Virus record (IMG/VR): IMGVR_UViG_3300027747_004417
DNA length: 64,000 nucleotides
Strand: one strand, 5' to 3'
From: a virus
The translations under genes and the position numbers were made by a program. Each line of letters starts with the position of its first letter. The stretch's first letter is position 1. This document shows, piece after piece, positions 2,805 to 61,920 of this stretch. The notes beneath the pieces were generated by a model. The model saw only the letters and a list, made by a program, of their open reading frames with translations. It was not told where the DNA came from and did not search any database.

Positions 2805-5800
2805 CTATTTACCTGGGCATGGAACTATGGCAACGCATTGTGCATCACCATTTTCGCCTGTTATTCTTCCTATATCCAGATTAATTTTTACGTCTATAGG
2901 AGCTCCTTTATAAACTAGTTCGATTTCAGGCTTTTCTGGTAGAACTAATTTAATTTCTGACGGTGCACCGACTAATTCTATCGTAGATGGAATGCCAACA
3001 ACCTGAATTCGATCTGGTATAGAAGTTGCATCAATTTTTATGTCAGGGAATGATTCCGGTGCTATTATCGGTATAGAACTGGGAAGGTTTTTAAAGTCTA
3101 CCTCTATTGAGCTTGGTAGATTAGTTGCTATAAAATCTACGGATATAACGCTTGGTATATCTGCTACCATCCTTATTTCTGAAGGGAAGTCCTTAGGAGA
3201 TATAATGTTTATATCAGGTATCTCAGGGGCTACCACTTTTATCATAGCTGGAACATCGTGTACAACTCTTATATCCGGCACTTCTGGGAACTTGACTAAT
3301 ATCTGTGAGGGTATATTAAATTCTCCTACATTCACTTCTATCGCGTCTGGCCCCGAATCTTCTACGTTTTCAAGTGCCCTAAAAGGAGATCCCCCAGGTG
3401 GACAAACTATTGTTACCGTACACTCGCATTGAGGTGGGTTGCCCCATATTACTGGAATTCCTGGCGGTGTACCGAACGATACACTTATAGGATCAATTGT
3501 AATGCGTGTTGGGAAAGTTAGTGGGTCAACAGTAATGTGTGTTGGGAAAGTCAGCGGATCAACATTAATGCGTGTTGGGAAAGTCAGCGGATCAACATTA
3601 ATGTGTGTTGGGAAAGTCAGCGGATCAACATTAATGCGTGTTGAGAAAGTTAGTGGGTCAACAGTAATGTGTGTTGGGAAAGTTAGTGGGTCAACAGTAA
3701 TGTGTGTTGGGAAAGTCAGCGGATCAACTGATATGTGTGTTGGGAAAGTCAGCGGATCAACTGATATGTGTGTTGGGAAAGTCAGCGGATCAACTGATAT
3801 GTGTGTTGGGAAAGTTAGCGGATCAACTGATATGTGTATTGGGAAAGTCAGCGGATCAACTGATATGTGTGTTGGGAAAGTCAGCGGATCAACTGATATG
3901 TGTGTTGGGAAAGTTAGCGGATCAACTGATATGTGTATTGGGAAAGTCAGCGGATCAACATTAATGCGTGTTGGGAAAGTTAGTGGGTCAACAGTAATGT
4001 GTGTTGGGAAAGTCAGCGGATCAACATTAATGCGTGTTGGGAAAGTTAGTGGGTCAACAGTAATGTGTGTTGGGAAAGTCAGCGGATCAACTGATATGTG
4101 TGTTGGGAAAGTCAGCGGATCAACTGATATGTGTGTTGGGAAAGTTAGTGGGTCAACAGTAATGTGTGTTGGGAAAGTCAGCGGATCAACTGATATGTGT
4201 GTTGGGAAAGTTAGCGGATCAACTGATATGTGTATTGGGAAAGTTAGTGGATCAACTTTTATGTTGGGGAAAGTTAGTGGATCAACTTTTATGTTGGGGA
4301 AAGTTAGTGGATCAACTTTTATGTTGGGGAAAGTTAGTGGATCAACTTTTATGTTGGGGAAAGTTAGTGGGTCAACTTTTATGTTGGGGAAAGTTAGTGG
4401 ATCAACTTTTATGTTGGGGAAAGTTAGTGGATCAACAGTAATGTGTGTTGGGAAAGTTAGTGGGTCAACAGTAATGTTTGTTGGGAAAGTTAGTGGGTCA
4501 ACAGTAATGTTTGTTGGGAAAGTTAGTGGATCAACAGTAATGTTTGTTGGGAAAGTTAGTGGGTCAACAGTAATGTTTGTTGGGAAAGTTAGTGGGTCAA
4601 CAGTAATGTTTGTTGGGAAAGTTAGTGGGTCGATTGATATATGTGTTGGGAATGTTAGTGGATCGATTGTTATATGTGTTGGAAACGTCAACGGATCAAT
4701 TGTAATATGTGTTGGAAAAGTTAGTGGGTCAATTGTTATATGTGTTGGGAAAGTTAGTGGATCGATTGTTATGTTTAGTGGATCGATTGTTATATTGGTT
4801 GGAAAAGTCAACGGATCAACTGTGATGTGAGTTGGGAAAGTTAACGAATCTACATGTATGTTTGGTATTGGACCGAAAGTTATGCTTGGAATATTAGGTA
4901 TTGGCCCAAACTCTACCATTGTTGGAAAACAAATTTGAACGTCAACATAAACGTTTGGCACTGGGCCAAACTCAATTAACGGATTAATTAAAGGTATAGG
5001 CCCGAATTCAACGTATGAGTTTATTGTAGGGACCGGCCCGAATTCGACCAAAGTTCCAAAAGACGGCACTGGGCCGAATTCTATTATTGTGGGTATAGGA
5101 GGATCTACAACTATTATTGATGGTATCTCTATAGGTCCTATAGGTCCTATGTCTAAACAGGGGAAAACTATAGGAGGTATTACAGGCGGTTCCACCGTTG
5201 GTATAGTAGGAATGGCTAATGCTGGTATTTTAGGTATCTGAGGTATGCTTAATTCAAATGTAGTATTTGTACTTGAAGGAGCTGGGTCTTTAGGTGAGTC
5301 CCTAGAAACTGGAGTTAGTACCAACTGGCACTTATCATTACTCAGTGTTAGAACAGGGTCTATCGTAGAGTTTGTTGCGTAAACGTGAGTCCCAGCTGTA
5401 GAATTAGCGGTGGACTGTCCATCTCCAAAATCTAGTCTGTAGCTTGTAAAACTGCCTTGTATTGATATGCTATACTGGGCTGTTGTGCCCAAAGCGTCAG
5501 AGCTAACTATATAAAAGTCAAAAACCACGTCAGGACAGGTATAATCATCAAACAGGACAGGTATGCTTTCAAGATGCCTAATTCTCCAGTCTAGTGTTTC
5601 CTTGTCTTCATCAAAATTAACTCCTATAAATTTTTCTGCATTTATTATGGCATCAGCGATTTGATTGTGATGCTCGGCAATAACAAACCCTCTGATCTCC
5701 GTACCAACAGGATTGTCTTTGGTTTTTTTTCCCCCTAAGTTCCTGCAACAACGCTTAAATTTTCTTACTTTTCCTTCAAACACAAGCTGTATGTCATCTA

Positions 5801-6245
5801 AAGAATATCCTGATCCTCCATGCACTACATCTAAGCTGGCAATAGAATTATTTTGTACGATTGCTGTTATTTTTGCTCCGCTGCCTTTTGAGCTGACAAT
5901 TTTAACGGAAGGGTAGAAATACCCAGACCCACCATCAATTATTGGTATGCTGATTATTGTGCCATCCTGGTTTATTTCTACTCTTCCTATAGAAAGACCA
6001 GACCCTAAAGGATCTGTTTTCTCTACATCGTCATAATAAAAAAGTTCTCCATTTATACTTGCAAACCCATTATCAGCCCATATCTCTGGTCTTTCATCAT
6101 TTACGGGTTCTATTGATATTTCATTTGCCCAAGCTAGATTGTCTTCCGTTGTGACAGTCTCAGATGTGTTGTAGACTAGGAACAGAGTTTCATCGCTGTC
6201 ATACTTTTTTGGATACGCAGGTTTTGGGGGAAAAAAATTTACCAC
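2805..6245 (-). CDS. Virion structural/fibre protein with HHN module, GGSGY repeats, PKD-like domain and long DPLTFP repeat tract (1146 aa)
   Basis: EHHNQIADAIINAEK, two GGSGY motifs, LDFGDG..GTHVY PKD signature, ~40 tandem DPLTFP units; lies in the tail operon. Confidence 0.75.
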   Translation of the reverse strand: MVNFFPPKPAYPKKYDSDETLFLVYNTSETVTTEDNLAWANEISIEPVNDERPEIWADNGFASINGELFYYDDVEKTDPLGSGLSIGRVEINQDGTIISIPIIDGGSGYFYPSVKIVSSKGSGAKITAIVQNNSIASLDVVHGGSGYSLDDIQLVFEGKVRKFKRCCRNLGGKKTKDNPVGTEIRGFVIAEHHNQIADAIINAEKFIGVNFDEDKETLDWRIRHLESIPVLFDDYTCPDVVFDFYIVSSDALGTTAQYSISIQGSFTSYRLDFGDGQSTANSTAGTHVYATNSTIDPVLTLSNDKCQLVLTPVSRDSPKDPAPSSTNTTFELSIPQIPKIPALAIPTIPTVEPPVIPPIVFPCLDIGPIGPIEIPSIIVVDPPIPTIIEFGPVPSFGTLVEFGPVPTINSYVEFGPIPLINPLIEFGPVPNVYVDVQICFPTMVEFGPIPNIPSITFGPIPNIHVDSLTFPTHITVDPLTFPTNITIDPLNITIDPLTFPTHITIDPLTFPTHITIDPLTFPTHITIDPLTFPTHISIDPLTFPTNITVDPLTFPTNITVDPLTFPTNITVDPLTFPTNITVDPLTFPTNITVDPLTFPTHITVDPLTFPNIKVDPLTFPNIKVDPLTFPNIKVDPLTFPNIKVDPLTFPNIKVDPLTFPNIKVDPLTFPIHISVDPLTFPTHISVDPLTFPTHITVDPLTFPTHISVDPLTFPTHISVDPLTFPTHITVDPLTFPTRINVDPLTFPTHITVDPLTFPTRINVDPLTFPIHISVDPLTFPTHISVDPLTFPTHISVDPLTFPIHISVDPLTFPTHISVDPLTFPTHISVDPLTFPTHISVDPLTFPTHITVDPLTFPTHITVDPLTFSTRINVDPLTFPTHINVDPLTFPTRINVDPLTFPTHITVDPLTFPTRITIDPISVSFGTPPGIPVIWGNPPQCECTVTIVCPPGGSPFRALENVEDSGPDAIEVNVGEFNIPSQILVKFPEVPDIRVVHDVPAMIKVVAPEIPDINIISPKDFPSEIRMVADIPSVISVDFIATNLPSSIEVDFKNLPSSIPIIAPESFPDIKIDATSIPDRIQVVGIPSTIELVGAPSEIKLVLPEKPEIELVYKGAPIDVKINLDIGRITGENGDAQCVAIVPCPGK
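3484..4850 (-). repeat. Coding tandem repeat: ~40 units of 33 bp (DPLTFPTHITV-type) including six 30-bp units (DPLTFPNIKV)
   Basis: Repeated gggaaagt(c/t)ag(c/t)gg(a/g)tc on the plus strand; counted in the translation. Confidence 0.97.
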
Positions 6246-6258
6246 AATCTAGTCTTTC

Positions 6259-8577
6259 TTAAAAAATGTACATTTGCCATTGTGTGGCGTTTGCTCTATC
6301 TGGACCATTAACTATAGACTTGAACGTCATGTCCGCCTCATTGAACTTTATAAAACATTTATTGCTGTAGTCATAACTTAAAAACACCAACTTATCTCCA
6401 TCGGAAGCTGATATCAAAGTATTTGCTGGGTCGTCAAACCCTATTTTACTTGTATCTTGAAGACTCCTAAACAGAGATGAGGTTGTCCCTGGACCTCCTG
6501 AGACCCATGATCCTGTGTTTGGGCTATAAGCTACCACCGATCCACTGTTATTAAAGAAATAAACTCCTTGACTTAATGAAACCAAAGATCCCTCAACCTT
6601 AGACCCAGGCATGTCTGAAACTTTTCTTATGTCTACAAATGGCTCTGATGTATTTCCACTCGTCTTGTAGAATGAACTTATCCTATAAAATAAGCCACCC
6701 TCATTTCTTAAAAGGTATCCTGAATCTTCATACCAAGTTGATCTATAAACACTAAAATAACCCTTACTTAGATTGCTATAATCGAAATCTAGTGTGTTTG
6801 TAGTAAGTTCGTTGGCACCATTTTTATAGTTTGAGCTTTGCATTGTTGAATCACTTGAACTAAAATCTAATATGTCATATTTAGTCTTTTGTTGTGATGT
6901 TGCTGCGTTGCCATCTGAAACTGCGCCGAACAGGAAATAAATACTTTGGTTGTAACCGAAACTAGCCCAGTTCCAAGGCCTATTTATGTGTCCTTTTGAT
7001 GTGTAGGTGTCTTCAAACCCATTGAACTCTGAGAACATAATTTTTTCGTTGCTAATCGGATCCGACAGATCTCTACCGCTAGCCCAATAAACCAGAGCTG
7101 TGCCGCCACCACCTGATGGTGTCGTTGTTCTTTTAATTGCTCCGTTATTCTTTAAAAATTCATTCTTTGACTTGGATTCCATCGATGAAGAATCTAGAAA
7201 GCTTGAGTTTGCATCAGATGTTAAATTGCTTCCTTTGACTTTAAAAGTTTCACTTATTATTCCAAATTCATAAGAATAAGATGTTGGCCCATTTGTGTAC
7301 CAAAGCCAAAGATTGTAGTTTTCAATAATGTCAAAAGCATTTTTATAATTCGTTATTCTGTAAGCATTGAACTCTGTGTCTGTTCTTAGTATTAAGTCAA
7401 AATATCCACCGCTCCCAAACAAAGCCTTCGTGCTTTTAGAGTTGTTATGAATCAAGTCATCAGAAAAAGACCAAGTATAAGTGTCTACGGCGTCTATGCG
7501 TTTATTTGATCCGTCAACTACTTCTCCTGAGTAGGTTCTGTAAGACCCATCTTCGCTGGTATAAGAGCCAGGCACGACTCTTATATTTTCATCGTGTATT
7601 CTTACATCTATCAAGGTGTTTATTGGTGCTCTTATTTTGGGGGTGGCATTTGTATATGGTTTATCATCCCCTCCTGGGAGTGGATCGCCTGGGGTTAAAG
7701 ATTGTCCACTTCTTTCTACTATCTCCACAGTTGCTTCATCCGGAGCAGGAAACCGGACATTTATAAGCTTAGGAAATACAACTACGTCGCTAAGCTGGTA
7801 AGAACCAAAATCATTTAGCACTGTTAGAGAAACATCGTATATTCCTGGGGAGCTATATGTCTTCTGTACTTTGCAAAGCCCCGATGAAGGGCATACAACT
7901 TCTGCCAATATGTTGGATATATTGGAAGGAACTACCGAATCGTTTACTGTTATCAAACTTATGTTGGTTATCTCTGTGTTGTCTCCAAAGTTCCAAATGT
8001 GTTTAACGGAACTAGCAACACCGTCTGTACCTAAGAAAAAGCTTTGATCGGTGAACTCCACAGTGAGAGGAGCTAACCCTACAACCTTATCCACTTTAAA
8101 CCAGGCCTTTGGAGCCAAGACTAACCTTCTTAGATAGTTTATCCTTTCTTCCATTGTTCCTCTTAGAGGATATTTTCCCACTTCGCCTTTTCTCCCAGCA
8201 AATCTTTCTACTTCTATTAAGGCATCTTTTAAATTGTTGTGGTGCAATGAAACAACGTTTTGCGTTACGTTCGTTGCTCTTTTAGGTTTAGGATTGTCTA
8301 TGAAACCTGGAAGAAGTTCGAGTCCATCAAATGATGTTAATGTTCTAGAAGAATAGTAAAATGACAAAGCTCTTAACTCTGGCTCGCTGCATTGCTCTGT
8401 TAATGTTATTATTCCTGTTGAATCAAATGTTCTAATAACATTTTCATCTCCCACAATTGATATATAAGTGTCACCGGGGTTATAATCTTCCGCTAGAGAT
8501 ACACGCAAGCTATCTGATACATGAAACAGATTCTGATCTGTGTCTATTGACTGTGGGTAGTTTACTTTTGGTATCAT
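6259..8577 (-). CDS. PKD-domain virion structural protein (772 aa)
   Basis: HHNNLKDALIEVE module; PKD motif GLAPLTVEFTDQS..WNFGD..TYSSPGIYDVSLTV; beta-rich C-terminus. Confidence 0.75.
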   Translation of the reverse strand: MIPKVNYPQSIDTDQNLFHVSDSLRVSLAEDYNPGDTYISIVGDENVIRTFDSTGIITLTEQCSEPELRALSFYYSSRTLTSFDGLELLPGFIDNPKPKRATNVTQNVVSLHHNNLKDALIEVERFAGRKGEVGKYPLRGTMEERINYLRRLVLAPKAWFKVDKVVGLAPLTVEFTDQSFFLGTDGVASSVKHIWNFGDNTEITNISLITVNDSVVPSNISNILAEVVCPSSGLCKVQKTYSSPGIYDVSLTVLNDFGSYQLSDVVVFPKLINVRFPAPDEATVEIVERSGQSLTPGDPLPGGDDKPYTNATPKIRAPINTLIDVRIHDENIRVVPGSYTSEDGSYRTYSGEVVDGSNKRIDAVDTYTWSFSDDLIHNNSKSTKALFGSGGYFDLILRTDTEFNAYRITNYKNAFDIIENYNLWLWYTNGPTSYSYEFGIISETFKVKGSNLTSDANSSFLDSSSMESKSKNEFLKNNGAIKRTTTPSGGGGTALVYWASGRDLSDPISNEKIMFSEFNGFEDTYTSKGHINRPWNWASFGYNQSIYFLFGAVSDGNAATSQQKTKYDILDFSSSDSTMQSSNYKNGANELTTNTLDFDYSNLSKGYFSVYRSTWYEDSGYLLRNEGGLFYRISSFYKTSGNTSEPFVDIRKVSDMPGSKVEGSLVSLSQGVYFFNNSGSVVAYSPNTGSWVSGGPGTTSSLFRSLQDTSKIGFDDPANTLISASDGDKLVFLSYDYSNKCFIKFNEADMTFKSIVNGPDRANATQWQMYIF

Positions 8578-51681: not shown

Positions 51682-51710
51682 TTGACAAGCAAAAGAGTGA
51701 TGGTTATAAT
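51682..51710 (+). promoter_or_regulatory. Consensus sigma70 promoter
   Basis: TTGACA (51682-87), 17-nt spacer, TATAAT (51705-10). Confidence 0.85.
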
Positions 51711-55777: not shown

Positions 55778-56569
55778 ATGAAGATACTAGTTTGCGACCC
55801 ATCGTTTTATCAAATAGATTATGAAATTAATCCCTGGATGAGTGTGTCACATAAGGCGGACACAAACTTAGCTATTCAACAATGGAATACACTCATAAAT
55901 GAATTGCTGGGACTGGGAGTTGATGTAGTAAGAATACCACCTCAGTCCGGTCTGCCCGACATGGTGTTCACCGCCAATGGTGGAGTAATGGCATATAATT
56001 ATGTTATTTTGTCCAACTTTAAACACAAAGAAAGGCAAGATGAAAAAGAGTTCTTTAAGAAGTGGTTTAATGAAAACGGCATTAGAGTTATAGAAATCAG
56101 CAACGGCATTAGATTTGAAGGAGCGGGAGATTGCCTTGTAAAAGACCATACGGTCTTTATGGGATACGGATTTAGAACTGACCAAGAAGCTTATTACGAT
56201 AACATTTGGGATGTTTTGGATATGAGGTCTTTTAGATTAAGACTTTTTGATCCGTACTTTTACCACCTTGATACTTGCTTTTGCCCATTAAACAAAAATC
56301 AGATTCTTATTTACCCTGAGGCGTTTGACAAAAACGATCTAGTGAATCTGAGAAGAAATAATTTTGAGCTACTCTGTGTTCCTAAAGAAGATGCTCATAA
56401 GTTTGCATGTAATGCCGTTCTAGTGGGTGACCATATTTTGATTCCAAAAGGCTGTGATGAGACTAGGGATATACTTACTCAAAACTACTATATTGTTCAC
56501 GAACTAGACATGAGCGAGTTTATCAAAGCCGGTGGGGCTTGTAAGTGCTTAACTATGGTCGTTGGCTGA
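55778..56569 (+). CDS. Amidinotransferase / dimethylarginine dimethylaminohydrolase superfamily enzyme
   Basis: YEINPWM, PDMVFTANGG, FEGAGD, YHLDT, GGACKCLT. Confidence 0.92.
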   Translation: MKILVCDPSFYQIDYEINPWMSVSHKADTNLAIQQWNTLINELLGLGVDVVRIPPQSGLPDMVFTANGGVMAYNYVILSNFKHKERQDEKEFFKKWFNENGIRVIEISNGIRFEGAGDCLVKDHTVFMGYGFRTDQEAYYDNIWDVLDMRSFRLRLFDPYFYHLDTCFCPLNKNQILIYPEAFDKNDLVNLRRNNFELLCVPKEDAHKFACNAVLVGDHILIPKGCDETRDILTQNYYIVHELDMSEFIKAGGACKCLTMVVG

Positions 56570-57011
56570 GAATGTCTTTTATTTCTAAAAGAGTTTTTTC
56601 CTGCAGAGTTAGCTCACCTTCTTCTTTTTCCTGCTCGAATACACAATATAACAATTTTTGAATAAGTAAAAACAAAAATAGAGATACAATCAAAAAAGTA
56701 ATCATGTCAGCAAAAAACAACCCAAAAGGAATGTCTTTCCCACAAAAGGTCACTTTCCAGTTTTTATAGCTTGATTCAAAAGGCAATAATATACTCACTA
56801 TAGGCATTAAAACATTATCTACTAAGCTAGATATTATCTTGTTGAAGGAACCACCTATTATTACTCCAACCGATAAGTCTAAAAACCTTCCTCTGAAAAC
56901 GAACTTTTTGAACTCTTTTAATAAGTCAAAAGCCTCTCTTCTAGAAATTAGTTCTTTATTCAATTGATTGTTATGCCTATATCTCATAAAAACAAAATTA
57001 TTTTTATACAC
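56553..57011 (-). CDS. mscL: Large-conductance mechanosensitive channel MscL (true start probably near TTG 56963)
   Basis: EFKKFVFRGRFLDLSVGVIIGGSFNKIISSLVDNVLMP; second TM; LLEIKDIL tail. Confidence 0.88.
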   Translation of the reverse strand: MYKNNFVFMRYRHNNQLNKELISRREAFDLLKEFKKFVFRGRFLDLSVGVIIGGSFNKIISSLVDNVLMPIVSILLPFESSYKNWKVTFCGKDIPFGLFFADMITFLIVSLFLFLLIQKLLYCVFEQEKEEGELTLQEKTLLEIKDILSQRP

Positions 57012-57572
57012 ATTCCTAAAAATGCTGGTACCTCTATTGTGGAGTCAAAAGAGTTAGAGTTCTCAACAGTAGGCCACCAATGCTTTTCACACTACAAAGA
57101 TAGATATCCAGTTCAGTGGGAAAATTATACAAAAGCTTGTATAGTAAGAAACCCTTGGGACAGGTTTGTTTCATGCTATGAATATGCAAGGATGACAAAA
57201 AGTTATTGGCACTCTAACGAAGGATACCCCTCTAGTAAATTTGGGCCACACCCTGATTACAAGAAAGTCAAAAATCTTTGCTTTGAGGGTTTCACAAGAA
57301 AGTTCTTTAACAAAGAACTTAATCTGAGTCATCCATGCTGGGCTCCACAAAAGAATTGGGTGTTCTCAGAGGAAAAACTAATGGTAGACGAGGTGTTTAG
57401 ACTAGAGAGCATAGAAGATAACAAAAAGTTTAAAGAAATTTTTGGTGTTATAGAAAAGCTTAATCAAAGCAAGAGGTCCGAATATAGGTCCTACTATAAA
57501 ACAAAAGAGTCTATAGACATAATAGCGGAAGCCTATAGAGATGATATAGAATTTCTTAACTACTCTTTTTAG
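56964..57572 (+). CDS. Carbohydrate sulfotransferase (Sulfotransfer_2-type)
   Basis: IFIHIPKNAGTSI 5'-PSB and VRNPWDRFVSCY 3'-PB motifs. Confidence 0.9.
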   Translation: MIVMPISHKNKIIFIHIPKNAGTSIVESKELEFSTVGHQCFSHYKDRYPVQWENYTKACIVRNPWDRFVSCYEYARMTKSYWHSNEGYPSSKFGPHPDYKKVKNLCFEGFTRKFFNKELNLSHPCWAPQKNWVFSEEKLMVDEVFRLESIEDNKKFKEIFGVIEKLNQSKRSEYRSYYKTKESIDIIAEAYRDDIEFLNYSF

Positions 57573-57876
57573 CCTTATTCTTTCTTTTTCTTCTCCAAGG
57601 CCAATATCCATAAAGTCCACAACACCCATAGGGTTTATTTGCAACGTCGGTCGTTTTTGTTCCCCCAGAATTGTTGCCAACGACAGATCCGGTACTTCCA
57701 CCGGTACTTCCACCGGTACTTCCACCGGTACTTCCACCGGTACTTCCACCGGTACTTCCACCGGTACTTCCACCGGTACTTCCACCGGCACTTCCACCGG
57801 CACTTCCACCGGCACTTCCACCGGCACTTCCACCGGCACCGTCTTCTGTTATTCTAAGCCACTTCTTGAAATTCAT
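57556..57876 (-). CDS. Small Gly/Ser-repeat protein with CTS-like start and basic tail (106 aa)
   Basis: MNFKKWLRITE, (GGSA)4(GGST)8, WPWRRKRKNKAKK. Confidence 0.75.
   Translation of the reverse strand: MNFKKWLRITEDGAGGSAGGSAGGSAGGSAGGSTGGSTGGSTGGSTGGSTGGSTGGSTGGSTGSVVGNNSGGTKTTDVANKPYGCCGLYGYWPWRRKRKNKAKKSS
57689..57838 (-). repeat. 12-bp coding tandem repeat ccgg(t/c)acttcca, about 12 copies
   Basis: Directly visible. Confidence 0.97.
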
Positions 57877-57893
57877 AATTTATATACTATAAT
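57866..57893 (+). promoter_or_regulatory. sigma70-like promoter upstream of the hairpin-controlled sulfotransferase
   Basis: TTGAAA-N16-TATAAT. Confidence 0.55.
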
Positions 57894-57907
57894 GTTCTGT
57901 AATTTAA

Positions 57908-57951
57908 CTTTGCTCCCTAGTCTTATAAATAATGTAAACTAGGGAGCAAAG
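57908..57951 (+). promoter_or_regulatory. RBS-sequestering 14-bp hairpin with T4 late promoter TATAAATA in its loop
   Basis: ctttgctccctagt (57908-21) / actagggagcaaag (57938-51); TATAAATA 57924-31; AGGGAG 57941-46; TTG start 57953. Confidence 0.85.
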
Positions 57952-57952
57952 A

Positions 57953-58555
57953 TTGTTAAGTTCAAGTAATAAAATATTTGTTATTGGTTTTCCAAAATGT
58001 GGAACAACTTCATTGCAAGAATCTTTTTTGCGTGTTGGGATGCCATCTATTCATTGGGGTAATTCTATTGATAACACCCATGTTTTCCTCGCAGCACATA
58101 AAATAGAAACCGCTAAGAAGGAAGGATTGCCACTTCTGACTTATTTAAGTGACTACAAAGCTTTTACTCAAATGGAAGCTTGCATCTATGAATATTGTTA
58201 TTGGCCTCAAATGCTGGACACTCCCGCATTAGATAGTCAACACCCAAATAGCAAGTTTATATTTAACGACAGAAATACTGAAAAGTGGATAAAATCTGTT
58301 AGTAGATGGGTCGTTCATGGTCAAAACTTAAGGGAAAGATTCATTAAATTCGACATTCCTGGACTACCTAAGGGCAAGGGAAAAGAAGATAAAGAACTTG
58401 AAGATTGGTATCTCTGGCATAAAAACAACATGATTGATTATTTTAAGAACAAGGATAACTTTATCGTTTTTAATATTGAAAATGATGATCCTAAAAAATT
58501 AGGAGAATTCCTTCAAATTGAAAATTTCTCTTTGCCACACTTAAACAGGAGTTGA
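57953..58555 (+). CDS. P-loop sulfotransferase family protein
   Basis: KIFVIGFPKCGTTSL, SKFIFNDR..WIKSV, and WY..H...I.YF..K motifs. Confidence 0.85.
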   Translation: MLSSSNKIFVIGFPKCGTTSLQESFLRVGMPSIHWGNSIDNTHVFLAAHKIETAKKEGLPLLTYLSDYKAFTQMEACIYEYCYWPQMLDTPALDSQHPNSKFIFNDRNTEKWIKSVSRWVVHGQNLRERFIKFDIPGLPKGKGKEDKELEDWYLWHKNNMIDYFKNKDNFIVFNIENDDPKKLGEFLQIENFSLPHLNRS

Positions 58556-60732: not shown

Positions 60733-60760
60733 TTGACCCACAACTCATTTTAAGTATAAT
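60733..60760 (+). promoter_or_regulatory. sigma70-like promoter
   Basis: TTGACC-N16-TATAAT upstream of 60790. Confidence 0.65.
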
Positions 60761-61432: not shown

Positions 61433-61528
61433 ATGGAAGTAAAAATATTAAGTGAGACACCGCTCAGGATGGCCGGAGCAGGTGGGCCTCCAAGAATAAC
61501 CCTAATAAAAATAGCGTCTAGTGGCTAA
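61433..61528 (+). CDS. Possible 31-aa peptide
   Basis: CTAAATA 5 nt upstream; MEVKILSETPLRMAGAGGPPRITLIKIASSG. Confidence 0.3.
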   Translation: MEVKILSETPLRMAGAGGPPRITLIKIASSG

Positions 61529-61536
61529 ATAGGGTT

Positions 61537-61920
61537 ATGAGGTCTTTTAACGAATATAAGGGAAACCAAGGCGTAGCTGCACTCTTTGGCAGCTTAATAA
61601 GCTATAGAGCTCAGGCTCATATTCTGCACCTATCAACAAAGAGCTTTTCTGAACACAAGGCACTAGAAAAGTTCTATGATTCCCTTAGTGACCTAACAGA
61701 TACCCTTATAGAGACCTACCAAGGACAATACGGTTTGGTAAATATAGACCAAGTACAAATTAAGTCCAATCAAGCATCGGACTTGTTAAAAAAGGTCGCC
61801 CAAGAAGCACAGGAAGCTCGTGATATCTTTGATAAAAAAGATACTCATTTACATAACATTCTGGATGAGTTAGTGTCTTTGACATACTCAACATTGTATA
61901 AAGTAAACAACCTAAAATAA
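61537..61920 (+). CDS. Ferritin/Dps-like four-helix bundle protein, CTS-like start
   Basis: AHILHL..SFSEHKALEKFYDSL..TDTLIETYQGQYG..NILDE; starts MRSFNEY. Confidence 0.7.
   Translation: MRSFNEYKGNQGVAALFGSLISYRAQAHILHLSTKSFSEHKALEKFYDSLSDLTDTLIETYQGQYGLVNIDQVQIKSNQASDLLKKVAQEAQEARDIFDKKDTHLHNILDELVSLTYSTLYKVNNLK

What the first reader, a model, noticed from the sequence alone, without database searches (positions are those of the whole stretch)
57866..57955. Early/late translational switch: RBS-sequestering hairpin with a late promoter in its loop controls a sulfotransferase
Seen: sigma70-like promoter TTGAAA-N16-TATAAT (57866-93), then a perfect 14-bp inverted repeat (57908-21 / 57938-51). 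The right arm contains the SD AGGGAG 6 nt before TTG 57953, and the 16-nt loop contains the exact T4 late promoter TATAAATA. Established: T4 genes e, soc, 49 and I-TevI use this logic, where early transcripts fold and hide the RBS and late transcripts start inside the hairpin and are translated. Inference: this sulfotransferase is restricted to late infection, consistent with modifying virion components.
Basis: partly seen in the sequence, partly recalled or inferred. Interest (0 to 1): 0.8.

Follow-up and report, generated by a model that had tools for sequence, protein, structure and literature searches.

The report
Promoter-in-hairpin switch on phage sulfotransferase
A strong RNA hairpin hides the ribosome-binding site of a sulfotransferase gene in an uncultured huge phage and carries the phage's own late-type promoter box in its loop, so it is probably a new example of phage T4's known early-off/late-on device, though no transcript data exist.

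Summary
It is the only perfect 14-bp short-range inverted repeat in 64 kb, none appeared in 100 simulated sequences, and it folds at -27.7 kcal/mol (z -6.6).

It lies in a 76-bp divergent intergenic region upstream of a Sulfotransfer_4 gene. RNA started at the sigma70-like promoter (about 57900) never exposes the SD, and opening the RBS costs about 29 kcal/mol. RNA started after the loop box (57936-38) needs about 5 kcal/mol.

The exact 8-mer TATAAATA is not enriched in the window. Its core, TAnATA, is a real promoter class in this lineage: it peaks 4-5 nt before SD-less ATGs, is conserved upstream of a structural operon, has the consensus (g/a)CTAAATA like the Aeh1 variant of T4-family late promoters, and the nearest full-length relative has gp55-like small sigmas.

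A second gene (61537) shows the same box-in-hairpin design. Against the reading, available relatives (56-60% identical) lack the hairpin, the box is low-information, and the "late" timing is inferred.

It is a new member of a known kind. This scan has already reported the same design in other phage genomes.

The parts
57866..57893 (+). Sigma70-type promoter candidate P1 (TTGAAA-N16-TATAAT). Predicted start is about 57899-57901, so its RNA contains the whole hairpin.
   Evidence: 11/12 match. It is one of 7 sites scoring 11/12 or better in 64 kb. Three of those have an intergenic -10, and all three point at a same-strand gene 29-150 nt away. The -35 overlaps codons 2-4 of the minus-strand gene.
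57901..57907 (+). 5' side of an outer 7-bp helix that pairs with 57956-57962, just after the TTG. It includes a G.U pair, so it forms only in + strand RNA.
   Evidence: MFE structures. The + strand folds at -27.7 and the - strand at -24.6 kcal/mol.
57908..57921 (+). 5' arm of the perfect 14-bp stem (the anti-SD arm, containing CTCCCT).
57922..57937 (+). 16-nt loop holding TATAAATA at 57924-31 (lineage core TAAATA at 57926-31). The predicted box-driven start is at A57936-A57938, the loop/3'-arm boundary.
   Evidence: The start position is inferred from the box-to-ATG gap of 4-5 nt at leaderless genes.
57938..57951 (+). 3' arm of the stem, containing the SD AGGGAG at 57941-46.
   Evidence: SD P(unpaired) is 0.000 in the long leader and 0.47-0.58 in the short leader.
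57953..58555 (+). Sulfotransferase gene (200 aa, TTG start). In the folded leader the start codon sits in a 4-nt internal loop between two helices.
   Evidence: Pfam PF17784, E 1.9e-17. Homologue alignment. Fold.
57556..57876 (-). Divergent gene (106 aa) with an N-terminal MNFKKWL motif and a Gly/Ser/Thr repeat. Its own TATATA box (57881-86, minus strand) lies 4 nt before an SD-less ATG.
   Evidence: The motif is shared with at least 5 other ORFs. Box. 12-bp tandem repeat.
61485..61544 (+). Second instance of the design. A helix of 9 + 6 bp pairs the whole ATG of gene 61537-61920 in read-through RNA, and the CTAAATA box (61525-31) lies in its loop, 5 nt before the SD-less ATG.
   Evidence: Fold at -20.9 kcal/mol, z -3.0. 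It has the second-highest RBS-opening cost of 54 genes. Box.

Best explanation
This is a two-promoter translational gate of the phage T4 type. Transcripts that enter from the left carry both arms of a very stable hairpin. These would start at the sigma70-type promoter at 57866-93, or read through from further upstream. The hairpin pairs the Shine-Dalgarno sequence AGGGAG and brackets the TTG start, so ribosomes cannot load on the sulfotransferase cistron, while downstream cistrons with their own SDs remain translatable. A second, -10-only promoter box (TAAATA, here in the full T4 form TATAAATA) sits in the hairpin loop. It belongs to a promoter class that this phage lineage uses widely, probably read by a gp55-like small sigma factor. 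RNA started about 5-6 nt after the box (A57936-38) lacks the 5' arm, has a 15-17-nt open leader with a free SD, and is translated. Shown here: the hairpin, its exceptional stability, the difference between the two leaders, and the reality of the box class in the lineage. Inferred: that both promoters fire, that the box class is 'late', and that expression is therefore restricted to late infection.
For: 1. Hairpin statistics: only perfect 14-bp inverted repeat in the window, 0 of 100 simulations, z -6.6.
2. Energetics: in the long leader the SD has P(unpaired) 0.000 and opening costs about 29 kcal/mol. In the loop-start leader it is 0.47-0.58 and about 5 kcal/mol.
3. It has the highest RBS-opening cost of 54 window genes (20.6 against a median of 5.1). 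Ranks 2 and 4 are also box genes.
4. The + strand RNA gains two extra helices through G.U pairs and is 3 kcal/mol more stable than the - strand.
5. The TAnATA box lies 3-8 nt before the start of 9 of 54 genes, and those starts lack an SD.
6. The box is conserved 4-6 nt before the ATG in 11 orthologous loci whose other upstream DNA has diverged. Some of those sit directly after a terminator, leaving no room for a -35.
7. In a 340-kb relative the box shows a sharp peak at gaps of 4-5 nt, 17 genes against about 0.5 per offset.
8. The consensus (g/a)CTAAATA equals the Aeh1-type variant of the T4-family late promoter (PMC2988020).
9. The box heads the gp2-like/tail/baseplate operon and, in the relative, a terminase fragment.
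10. gp55-family small sigma ORFs are present in the nearest GenBank relative and in another sulfotransferase-bearing contig.
11. The T4 e leader has the same layout (PMC3014915).
12. Gene 61537 is a second instance of the box-in-hairpin design.
13. The P1 promoter is among the three best intergenic sigma70 matches.
Against: No transcript or protein data exist. The hairpin could not be tested for covariation. In all fetched relatives (56-60% identical) the gene has an ATG start coupled or closely spaced to an upstream same-strand gene, with no hairpin. The 72-77% homologues could not be fetched. The box carries only about 10 bits, and many equal matches lie in coding DNA. The chance of a TAnATA in an AT-rich 16-nt loop is roughly 0.03-0.1. 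TATAAATA as an 8-mer is not enriched. Box-driven genes in the relative include methyltransferases and unknowns, not only structural genes, so 'late' is not established. No gp55 match was found in the 340-kb relative, which is 69% complete, and the window's own genome could not be searched. The -35 of P1 is partly a by-product of coding sequence.
Confidence: 0.5

Rival explanations
1. The hairpin masks the RBS in RNA, but there is no internal promoter. The gene is kept at a low level or is unmasked in trans, for example by RNase III-type cleavage of the roughly 26-bp composite helix, by an RNA-binding or helicase protein, or by temperature. On this reading the TAAATA in the loop is a coincidence of an AT-rich loop.
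For: SD sequestration is robust. The box is low-information, and many equal matches are non-functional. The composite helix of 7 + 14 + 5 bp approaches the length of a double-strand RNase substrate.
Against: A 16-nt loop is unnecessarily long for a plain masking hairpin. The box matches a positionally validated promoter class. Gene 61537 repeats the box-in-loop layout. No Rfam family or thermometer-like motif matches.
Confidence: 0.2
2. The element acts on DNA. The inverted repeat is an operator for a dimeric regulator, or a cruciform, that controls the two divergent promoters of the 76-bp region, and RNA folding is incidental.
For: The arms are perfectly complementary with no G.U pairs, as expected for a DNA palindrome. 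The repeat sits between two divergently transcribed genes, next to both candidate promoters.
Against: 14-bp half-sites 16 bp apart are atypical for operators. The arm sequence occurs nowhere else in the window above chance. One arm coincides exactly with the SD at correct spacing to the start. The extra flanking and inner helices form only in + strand RNA.
Confidence: 0.1
3. The hairpin is a transcription terminator or insulator. It would stop + strand read-through coming from the upstream sulfotransferase gene (56964-57572), which runs antisense through the minus-strand gene.
For: The convergent genes overlap with no terminator between them. In the relative, terminator hairpins often sit directly upstream of box promoters.
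Against: There is no U-tract after the stem (AGAUUGUUAAG). Genuine terminators in this lineage have GC-rich stems, short loops and T-runs. The loop is 16 nt long.
Confidence: 0.07
4. There is no regulatory role. The palindrome is a recent insertion or duplication remnant that happens to overlap the RBS.
For: It is absent from all fetched relatives. There is no exact copy in IMG/VR. Perfect arms could mean a young element.
Against: A 29 kcal/mol lock on the RBS of an intact, conserved gene would be strongly deleterious unless it is bypassed. It is not a dispersed repeat. The layout coincides with a known functional design.
Confidence: 0.08

Closest known systems
Phage T4 gene e (lysozyme) leader; also soc, 49, I-TevI/II/III, segB and Aeh1 mobE (PMC3014915, PMC2988022)
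   Same: A helix pairs the SD and/or start codon on transcripts from upstream promoters. A -10-only late promoter lies within or at the 5' arm or loop, so late RNA lacks the 5' arm. In T4 e the order is TATAAATA, then AGGAGG, then AUG, as here. About 100-fold repression is documented for e.
   Different: The phage here is a distant huge-phage lineage (baseplate protein 44% identical to LR756511.1), not a T-even. The stem is longer and stronger (-27.7 against -15 and -19 kcal/mol). The box lies wholly in a 16-nt loop. The long RNA would come from a dedicated sigma70-type promoter only about 8 nt upstream of the structure, in a divergent region, instead of from a long polycistronic early RNA. 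The gated gene is a sulfotransferase, not a lysis, capsid or nuclease gene.
T4-family gp55 late promoters, including the Aeh1 variant (a/g)CTAAATA (PMC2988020)
   Same: An 8-bp -10-only element with no -35 is followed by a start about 6 nt downstream. The lineage consensus (g/a)CTAAATA matches the Aeh1 variant. gp55-like small sigmas occur in relatives.
   Different: The third core position is degenerate (TAAATA, TATATA, TACATA, TAGATA). Most sites sit 4-5 nt from an SD-less ATG, implying leaderless mRNAs, which is not the T4 norm. The temporal class is unproven.
Generic RBS-sequestering 5'-UTR hairpins (RNA thermometers, RNase III-activated leaders)
   Same: An anti-SD arm pairs with the SD, and translation depends on opening the helix.
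   Different: Those are opened by heat, ligands or cleavage. Here a promoter-like box inside the loop offers a transcriptional bypass. No Rfam family matches.

Membership tests
T4-type promoter-in-hairpin translational gate | A stable RNA helix pairs the SD and/or start codon on transcripts that begin upstream | tested here: met
   14 + 7 + 5 bp structure at -27.7 kcal/mol, z -6.6. SD P(unpaired) is 0.000 and opening costs about 29 kcal/mol. Highest opening cost of 54 genes.
T4-type promoter-in-hairpin translational gate | A phage promoter lies between the 5' arm and the RBS, so its RNA lacks the 5' arm | tested here: inconclusive
   Sequence criterion met: TATAAATA/TAAATA in the loop, with a predicted start at 57936-38. 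The box class is validated by position and conservation. This individual site is low-information, and no start site has been mapped.
T4-type promoter-in-hairpin translational gate | Upstream (earlier-class) transcription crosses the hairpin | tested here: inconclusive
   An 11/12 sigma70 consensus lies at 57866-93, one of three top intergenic, correctly oriented matches. There are no RNA data, and the -35 overlaps coding sequence.
T4-type promoter-in-hairpin translational gate | The short transcript has an accessible RBS | tested here: met
   SD P(unpaired) is 0.47-0.58 and opening costs 4.8-6.1 kcal/mol for starts at 57935-39.
T4-type promoter-in-hairpin translational gate | Time-dependent translation (off early, on late) demonstrated | not testable with these tools
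   This needs infection time-course RNA and protein data.
T4-type promoter-in-hairpin translational gate | Leader structure retained in related phages | tested here: not met
   Relatives at 56-60% identity (L001-L005) have an ATG start with stop/start overlap or a spacer of about 16 nt after an upstream gene, and no hairpin.
gp55-dependent (T4-family) late promoter | -10-only TATAAATA-like box, no -35, variable -13/-12 | tested here: met
   The consensus is (g/a)C-TA[A/T/C/G]ATA. Some boxes lie within about 25 nt of an upstream terminator. Compared with PMC2988020.
gp55-dependent (T4-family) late promoter | The phage encodes a gp55-type sigma (with gp33 and the sliding clamp) | tested here: inconclusive
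   phrog_234 matches occur in LR756511.1 (186-aa and 124-aa ORFs, E 2.9e-7 and 1.7e-4) and in G004 (E 1.8e-7), but none in G001. The window's own genome is not held. gp33 and gp45 were not searched.
Intrinsic (Rho-independent) terminator | GC-rich stem, short loop, U-tract immediately 3' | tested here: not met
   The loop is 16 nt and the 3' flank is AGAUUGUUAAG. It was not called by the terminator scan.
Curated RNA families (Rfam 15) | Match at or above the gathering score | tested here: not met
   The best hits score 21 and 20 bits against gathering scores of 100 and 97, E about 0.3.
Pfam Sulfotransfer_4 (PF17784) - the gated gene | Profile match above the curated cut-off, with the N-terminal PAPS-binding P-loop motif | tested here: met
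   64.3 bits against a cut-off of 22.8, E 1.9e-17. GFPKCGT is invariant in 12 homologues.

The most novel reading that the evidence does not exclude
The inverted repeat acts on DNA as well. On supercoiled or replicating phage DNA it would extrude as a hairpin or cruciform that presents the -10-only box single-stranded in its loop to a region-2-only sigma. Promoter opening would then be built into the template, a host-RNAP analogue of phage N4's hairpin promoters, and the same sequence would double as the RNA lock. Genes 57953 and 61537 would be two examples.
Probability: 0.05. Interest if true: 0.8.

Novelty: new member of a known kind. Interest (0 to 1): 0.38.

Why it matters
If confirmed, it would show that T4's economical device operates in an uncultured huge-phage lineage only distantly related to T-evens. 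In that device one hairpin and a nested -10-only promoter make a gene translatable only from its own transcript. Here it acts on an auxiliary carbohydrate/protein-modifying enzyme instead of a lysis gene or selfish nuclease. It also provides a practical handle: the TAnATA/(g/a)CTAAATA box with leaderless starts can be used to annotate transcription units and temporal classes in these unannotated genomes. It would place the sulfotransferase in the same regulatory class as the structural genes, which is a testable hint that it modifies virion or late-stage targets. The design has been reported repeatedly by this scan in other phages, so this instance adds breadth and is not a new principle.

Tried and rejected
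1. Covariation test of the hairpin. Scans of viral contigs, metagenome contigs and genome contigs returned only relatives at 60% identity or less, without the hairpin. An exact-pattern scan of IMG/VR found nothing. GenBank phages have no homologue.
3. The reading 'exact T4 late promoter' is rejected as stated, because the 8-mer is at chance frequency and the other copies are in coding DNA.
4. Dispersed repeat or MITE is rejected, because near-matches to the arm are at chance level.
5. A known RNA family is rejected.
6. An intrinsic terminator is rejected on anatomy.
7. I looked for further strict instances (perfect stem of 9 bp or more over the RBS with a box inside) in 54 + 514 genes. Only this locus qualified. 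The energy-based ranking then also picked out 61537 and 52493.
8. A weight matrix of the box did not separate functional sites from coding-region matches.
9. phrog_12791 gave no hits anywhere, including the controls, so that search is uninformative.

Full report
OBSERVATION. Reading the window confirms each element.
- TTGAAA (57866-71), a 16-nt spacer and TATAAT (57888-93).
- 5' arm CTTTGCTCCCTAGT (57908-21).
- Loop CTTATAAATAATGTAA (57922-37), with TATAAATA at 57924-31.
- 3' arm ACTAGGGAGCAAAG (57938-51), containing AGGGAG (57941-46).
- Six nt, then TTG at 57953.

TTG is the only canonical start after the in-frame TAA at 57935-37. Twelve homologues start 3-6 residues before the invariant N[KR]IFV[IV]GFPKCGT motif, as this ORF does. 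The ORF is a Sulfotransfer_4 protein (PF17784, E 1.9e-17).

The inverted repeat is the only perfect one of 14 bp or more with a short spacer in the 64 kb. None arose in 100 Markov-simulated windows. The RNA folds at -27.7 kcal/mol against -9.7 +/- 2.7 for shuffles (z -6.6). The arm is not a dispersed repeat, and no Rfam family matches.

CONTEXT. The window is part of a large myovirus-type phage. It carries baseplate J/gp6-like, gp25-like, gpV/gp5-like and P2-I-like tail proteins, a 4741-aa ORF and a CCA-adding enzyme. It has almost no DNA similarity to GenBank phages. Its baseplate protein is 44% identical to that of LR756511.1, a 595-kb uncultured huge phage.

The hairpin lies in a 76-bp divergent intergenic region (57877-57952). 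On the right is the sulfotransferase. On the left is a minus-strand gene (57556-57876) that is real: its N-terminal MNFKKWL motif recurs at five or more other ORF starts. It contains a 12-bp tandem repeat. Genes in the window commonly use GGAG-type SDs, so AGGGAG followed by 6 nt and TTG is a credible initiation site.

WHAT THE HAIRPIN DOES TO RNA. I folded leaders with alternative 5' ends.
- From 57899-57901, the expected start of the sigma70-like promoter, the SD has an unpaired probability of 0.000 and opening 57938-57968 costs about 29 kcal/mol. The TTG sits in a 4-nt internal loop between the 14-bp stem and an outer 7-bp helix (57901-07 with 57956-62).
- Read-through RNA from further upstream behaves the same way (25 kcal/mol).
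- From 57935-57939 the SD is 43-58% unpaired and opening costs 4.8-6.1 kcal/mol.

Among the 54 genes of the window this gene has the highest opening cost (20.6 against a median of 5.1 kcal/mol in a uniform -80/+40 context). The outer and inner accessory helices use G.U pairs and exist only in + strand RNA (-27.7 against -24.6 kcal/mol). That is mild evidence for an RNA-level role on the sense strand.

IS THERE AN UPSTREAM PROMOTER? Sigma70-type matches are not enriched overall. The strongest ones are informative, though. Seven sites in the window score 11/12 or better, and three of them have their -10 in the 3.4% of the window that is intergenic. All three are oriented towards a same-strand gene 29-150 nt away. 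They are a perfect TTGACA-N17-TATAAT at 51682, the site at 60733, and the site at 57866-93. One caveat is that its -35 is the reverse complement of the Phe-Lys codons of the minus-strand gene's motif.

IS THE LOOP BOX A PROMOTER? As an 8-mer, TATAAATA is at chance frequency (5 against 5.2), and the other four copies are in coding DNA. So the reading 'exact T4 late promoter' is not supported as such. An earlier first-reader note on this window had flagged TAnATA boxes before SD-less starts, and I tested that idea.
- Nine of 54 genes have TA[ACT]ATA 3-8 nt before a start without an SD, nearly all at the start of a transcription unit.
- The first gene of the long gp2-like/giant-protein/baseplate operon is one of them.
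- In 11 orthologous loci from IMG/VR (about 60% protein identity) the upstream DNA has diverged completely. A TA[ACG]ATA box is still kept 4-6 nt before the SD-less ATG, in several cases only about 25 nt after an intrinsic terminator, which leaves no room for a -35.
- In a 340-kb relative (G001) the box shows a sharp positional peak at gaps of 4-5 nt, 17 genes against about 0.5 per offset. Its consensus is (g/a)CTAAATA or CTATATA.
- Geiduschek and Kassavetis (PMC2988020) describe T4-family late promoters as -10-only boxes whose -13/-12 positions vary, with (a/g)C in Aeromonas phage Aeh1. That is the same variant.
- gp55-family (phrog_234) matches occur as 186-aa and 124-aa region-2-only ORFs in LR756511.1, and next to the sulfotransferase cluster of another contig. 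None was found in G001, which is 69% complete.
- Box-driven genes in G001 include a terminase fragment and the tail operon, but also methyltransferases and unknowns.

The box is therefore very probably a real -10-only promoter class that gives leaderless mRNAs. It is plausibly read by a gp55-like sigma and plausibly late, but its timing is not shown.

The loop site (T-A-TAAATA) is an average member of the class. The matrix carries only about 10 bits, and many equal matches lie in coding DNA. I estimate a 0.03-0.1 chance of such a hexamer in an AT-rich 16-nt loop. By analogy with the leaderless genes, the start would be A57936-A57938, exactly at the loop/3'-arm boundary.

A SECOND INSTANCE. Gene 61537-61920 is preceded by CTAAATA (61525-31), 5 nt before an SD-less ATG. 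In read-through RNA a helix of 9 + 6 bp (61485-90 and 61496-61504 with 61530-44) pairs all three bases of the ATG, at -20.9 kcal/mol (z -3.0). The box lies in the loop, so a leaderless RNA lacks both 5' arms. This gene ranks second of 54 for opening cost, and box gene 52493 ranks fourth. It also lies downstream of a sigma70-type promoter (60733-60). This repeat of the layout raises my confidence that the arrangement is deliberate.

COMPARISON WITH THE PARADIGM. Uzan and Miller (PMC3014915) and Edgell et al. (PMC2988022) document the device for T4 e, soc, 49, I-TevI/II/III, segB and Aeh1 mobE, with about 100-fold repression for e. I folded the T4 e and 49 leaders from AF158101. In e the order is UAUAAAUA at the 5'-arm/loop boundary, then AGGAGG in the 3' arm, then AUG, at -15.1 kcal/mol. 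Gene 49 folds at -19.4 kcal/mol. The present locus has the same order with a longer, perfect stem (-27.7 kcal/mol). It differs in four ways: the lineage, the gated gene, the box lying wholly in the loop, and a dedicated promoter immediately upstream in a divergent region.

WHAT ARGUES AGAINST. There are no transcript data, and no covariation test was possible. In L001-L003 the orthologue starts at an ATG that overlaps the stop of an upstream gene. In L004 and L005 it follows a gene after about 16 nt. No hairpin exists in any of them, so the device is not ancestral to the gene. The window's whole genome is not held.

ALTERNATIVES. These are a masking hairpin relieved in trans (0.2), a DNA operator or cruciform (0.1), a terminator or insulator (0.07, since there is no U-tract), and a non-functional young palindrome (0.08).

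VERDICT. 'Late' timing and 'virion modification' remain inference. This is a new member of a known kind. The scan's records show that follow-up agents have already described the same promoter-in-hairpin design in several other uncultured phages, mostly on nuclease genes, so the principle is not new. The sulfotransferase target and the link to a leaderless late-promoter class are the modest additions.

Noticed in passing
window 1082-87(-), 37447-52(-), 38385-90, 42874-79(-), 52483-88, 55769-74, 57881-86(-), 61526-31; L022-L032; G001 (L045-L062): There is a lineage-wide -10-only promoter class, TAnATA (consensus (g/a)CTAAATA), 4-5 nt before SD-less ATGs, which implies leaderless mRNAs. It is conserved at orthologous positions while the flanks diverge, and it often sits directly after the upstream terminator.
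   Followed up: yes
window 61485-61544: Gene 61537 (phrog_858-like regulator) has its ATG fully paired in read-through RNA (-20.9 kcal/mol, z -3.0) with its CTAAATA box in the loop. Gene 52493 has a mini-palindrome TGCAT-aaata-ATGCA across its box and ATG.
   Followed up: partly
window 39791, 53602(-), 57876(-), 58790, 58932, 60533: At least six ORFs begin with a shared N-terminal motif, M-x-F-K/R-x-W/Y-L/I/V (MNFKKWL, MNFRKWL, MQFKDWI and others). This could be a targeting or packaging tag. Two of them (57876-, 60533+) also share a Gly-rich middle and a basic tail.
   Followed up: partly
window 57689-57836: A 12-bp tandem repeat (12.3 copies, 99% matches) has two sub-variants (GGTACT... and GGCACT...). 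It encodes (GGS[TA])n inside the minus-strand gene and is probably a length-variable region.
   Followed up: no
L040:1285-1845 and L041:1468-1842 (LR756511.1): Two small ORFs (186 and 124 aa) that contain only sigma region 2 match the gp55 late-sigma family in the nearest huge-phage relative. Two paralogues could mean two late promoter sub-classes.
   Followed up: partly
L002 (G004) 5076-6630; L004 1-400; L005 3380-3740: The sulfotransferase family moves between contexts. In some phages it is inside glycosyltransferase clusters, in one case next to a gp55-like gene. In others it sits behind a trypsin-like protease gene, always with an ATG start and tight coupling. Only this window has a TTG start with its own leader.
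   Followed up: partly
G001 86607-87854(+), 152943-153374(+), 155954-156901(+): Three genes of the 340-kb relative have hairpins whose 3' arm carries the SD (GGGAG, GAGGAAA, AGGAGG). The 5' arm or loop carries TATAAT-like or AT-rich sequence. These are possible further promoter-in-hairpin gates using a different box.
   Followed up: no
window 56553-57011(-), 56964-57572(+), 57556-57876(-): An MscL-like gene, a second sulfotransferase (Sulfotransfer_2) and the tagged minus-strand gene overlap one another at their ends (48 nt divergent, 17 nt convergent) with no terminator between the convergent pair.
   Followed up: no
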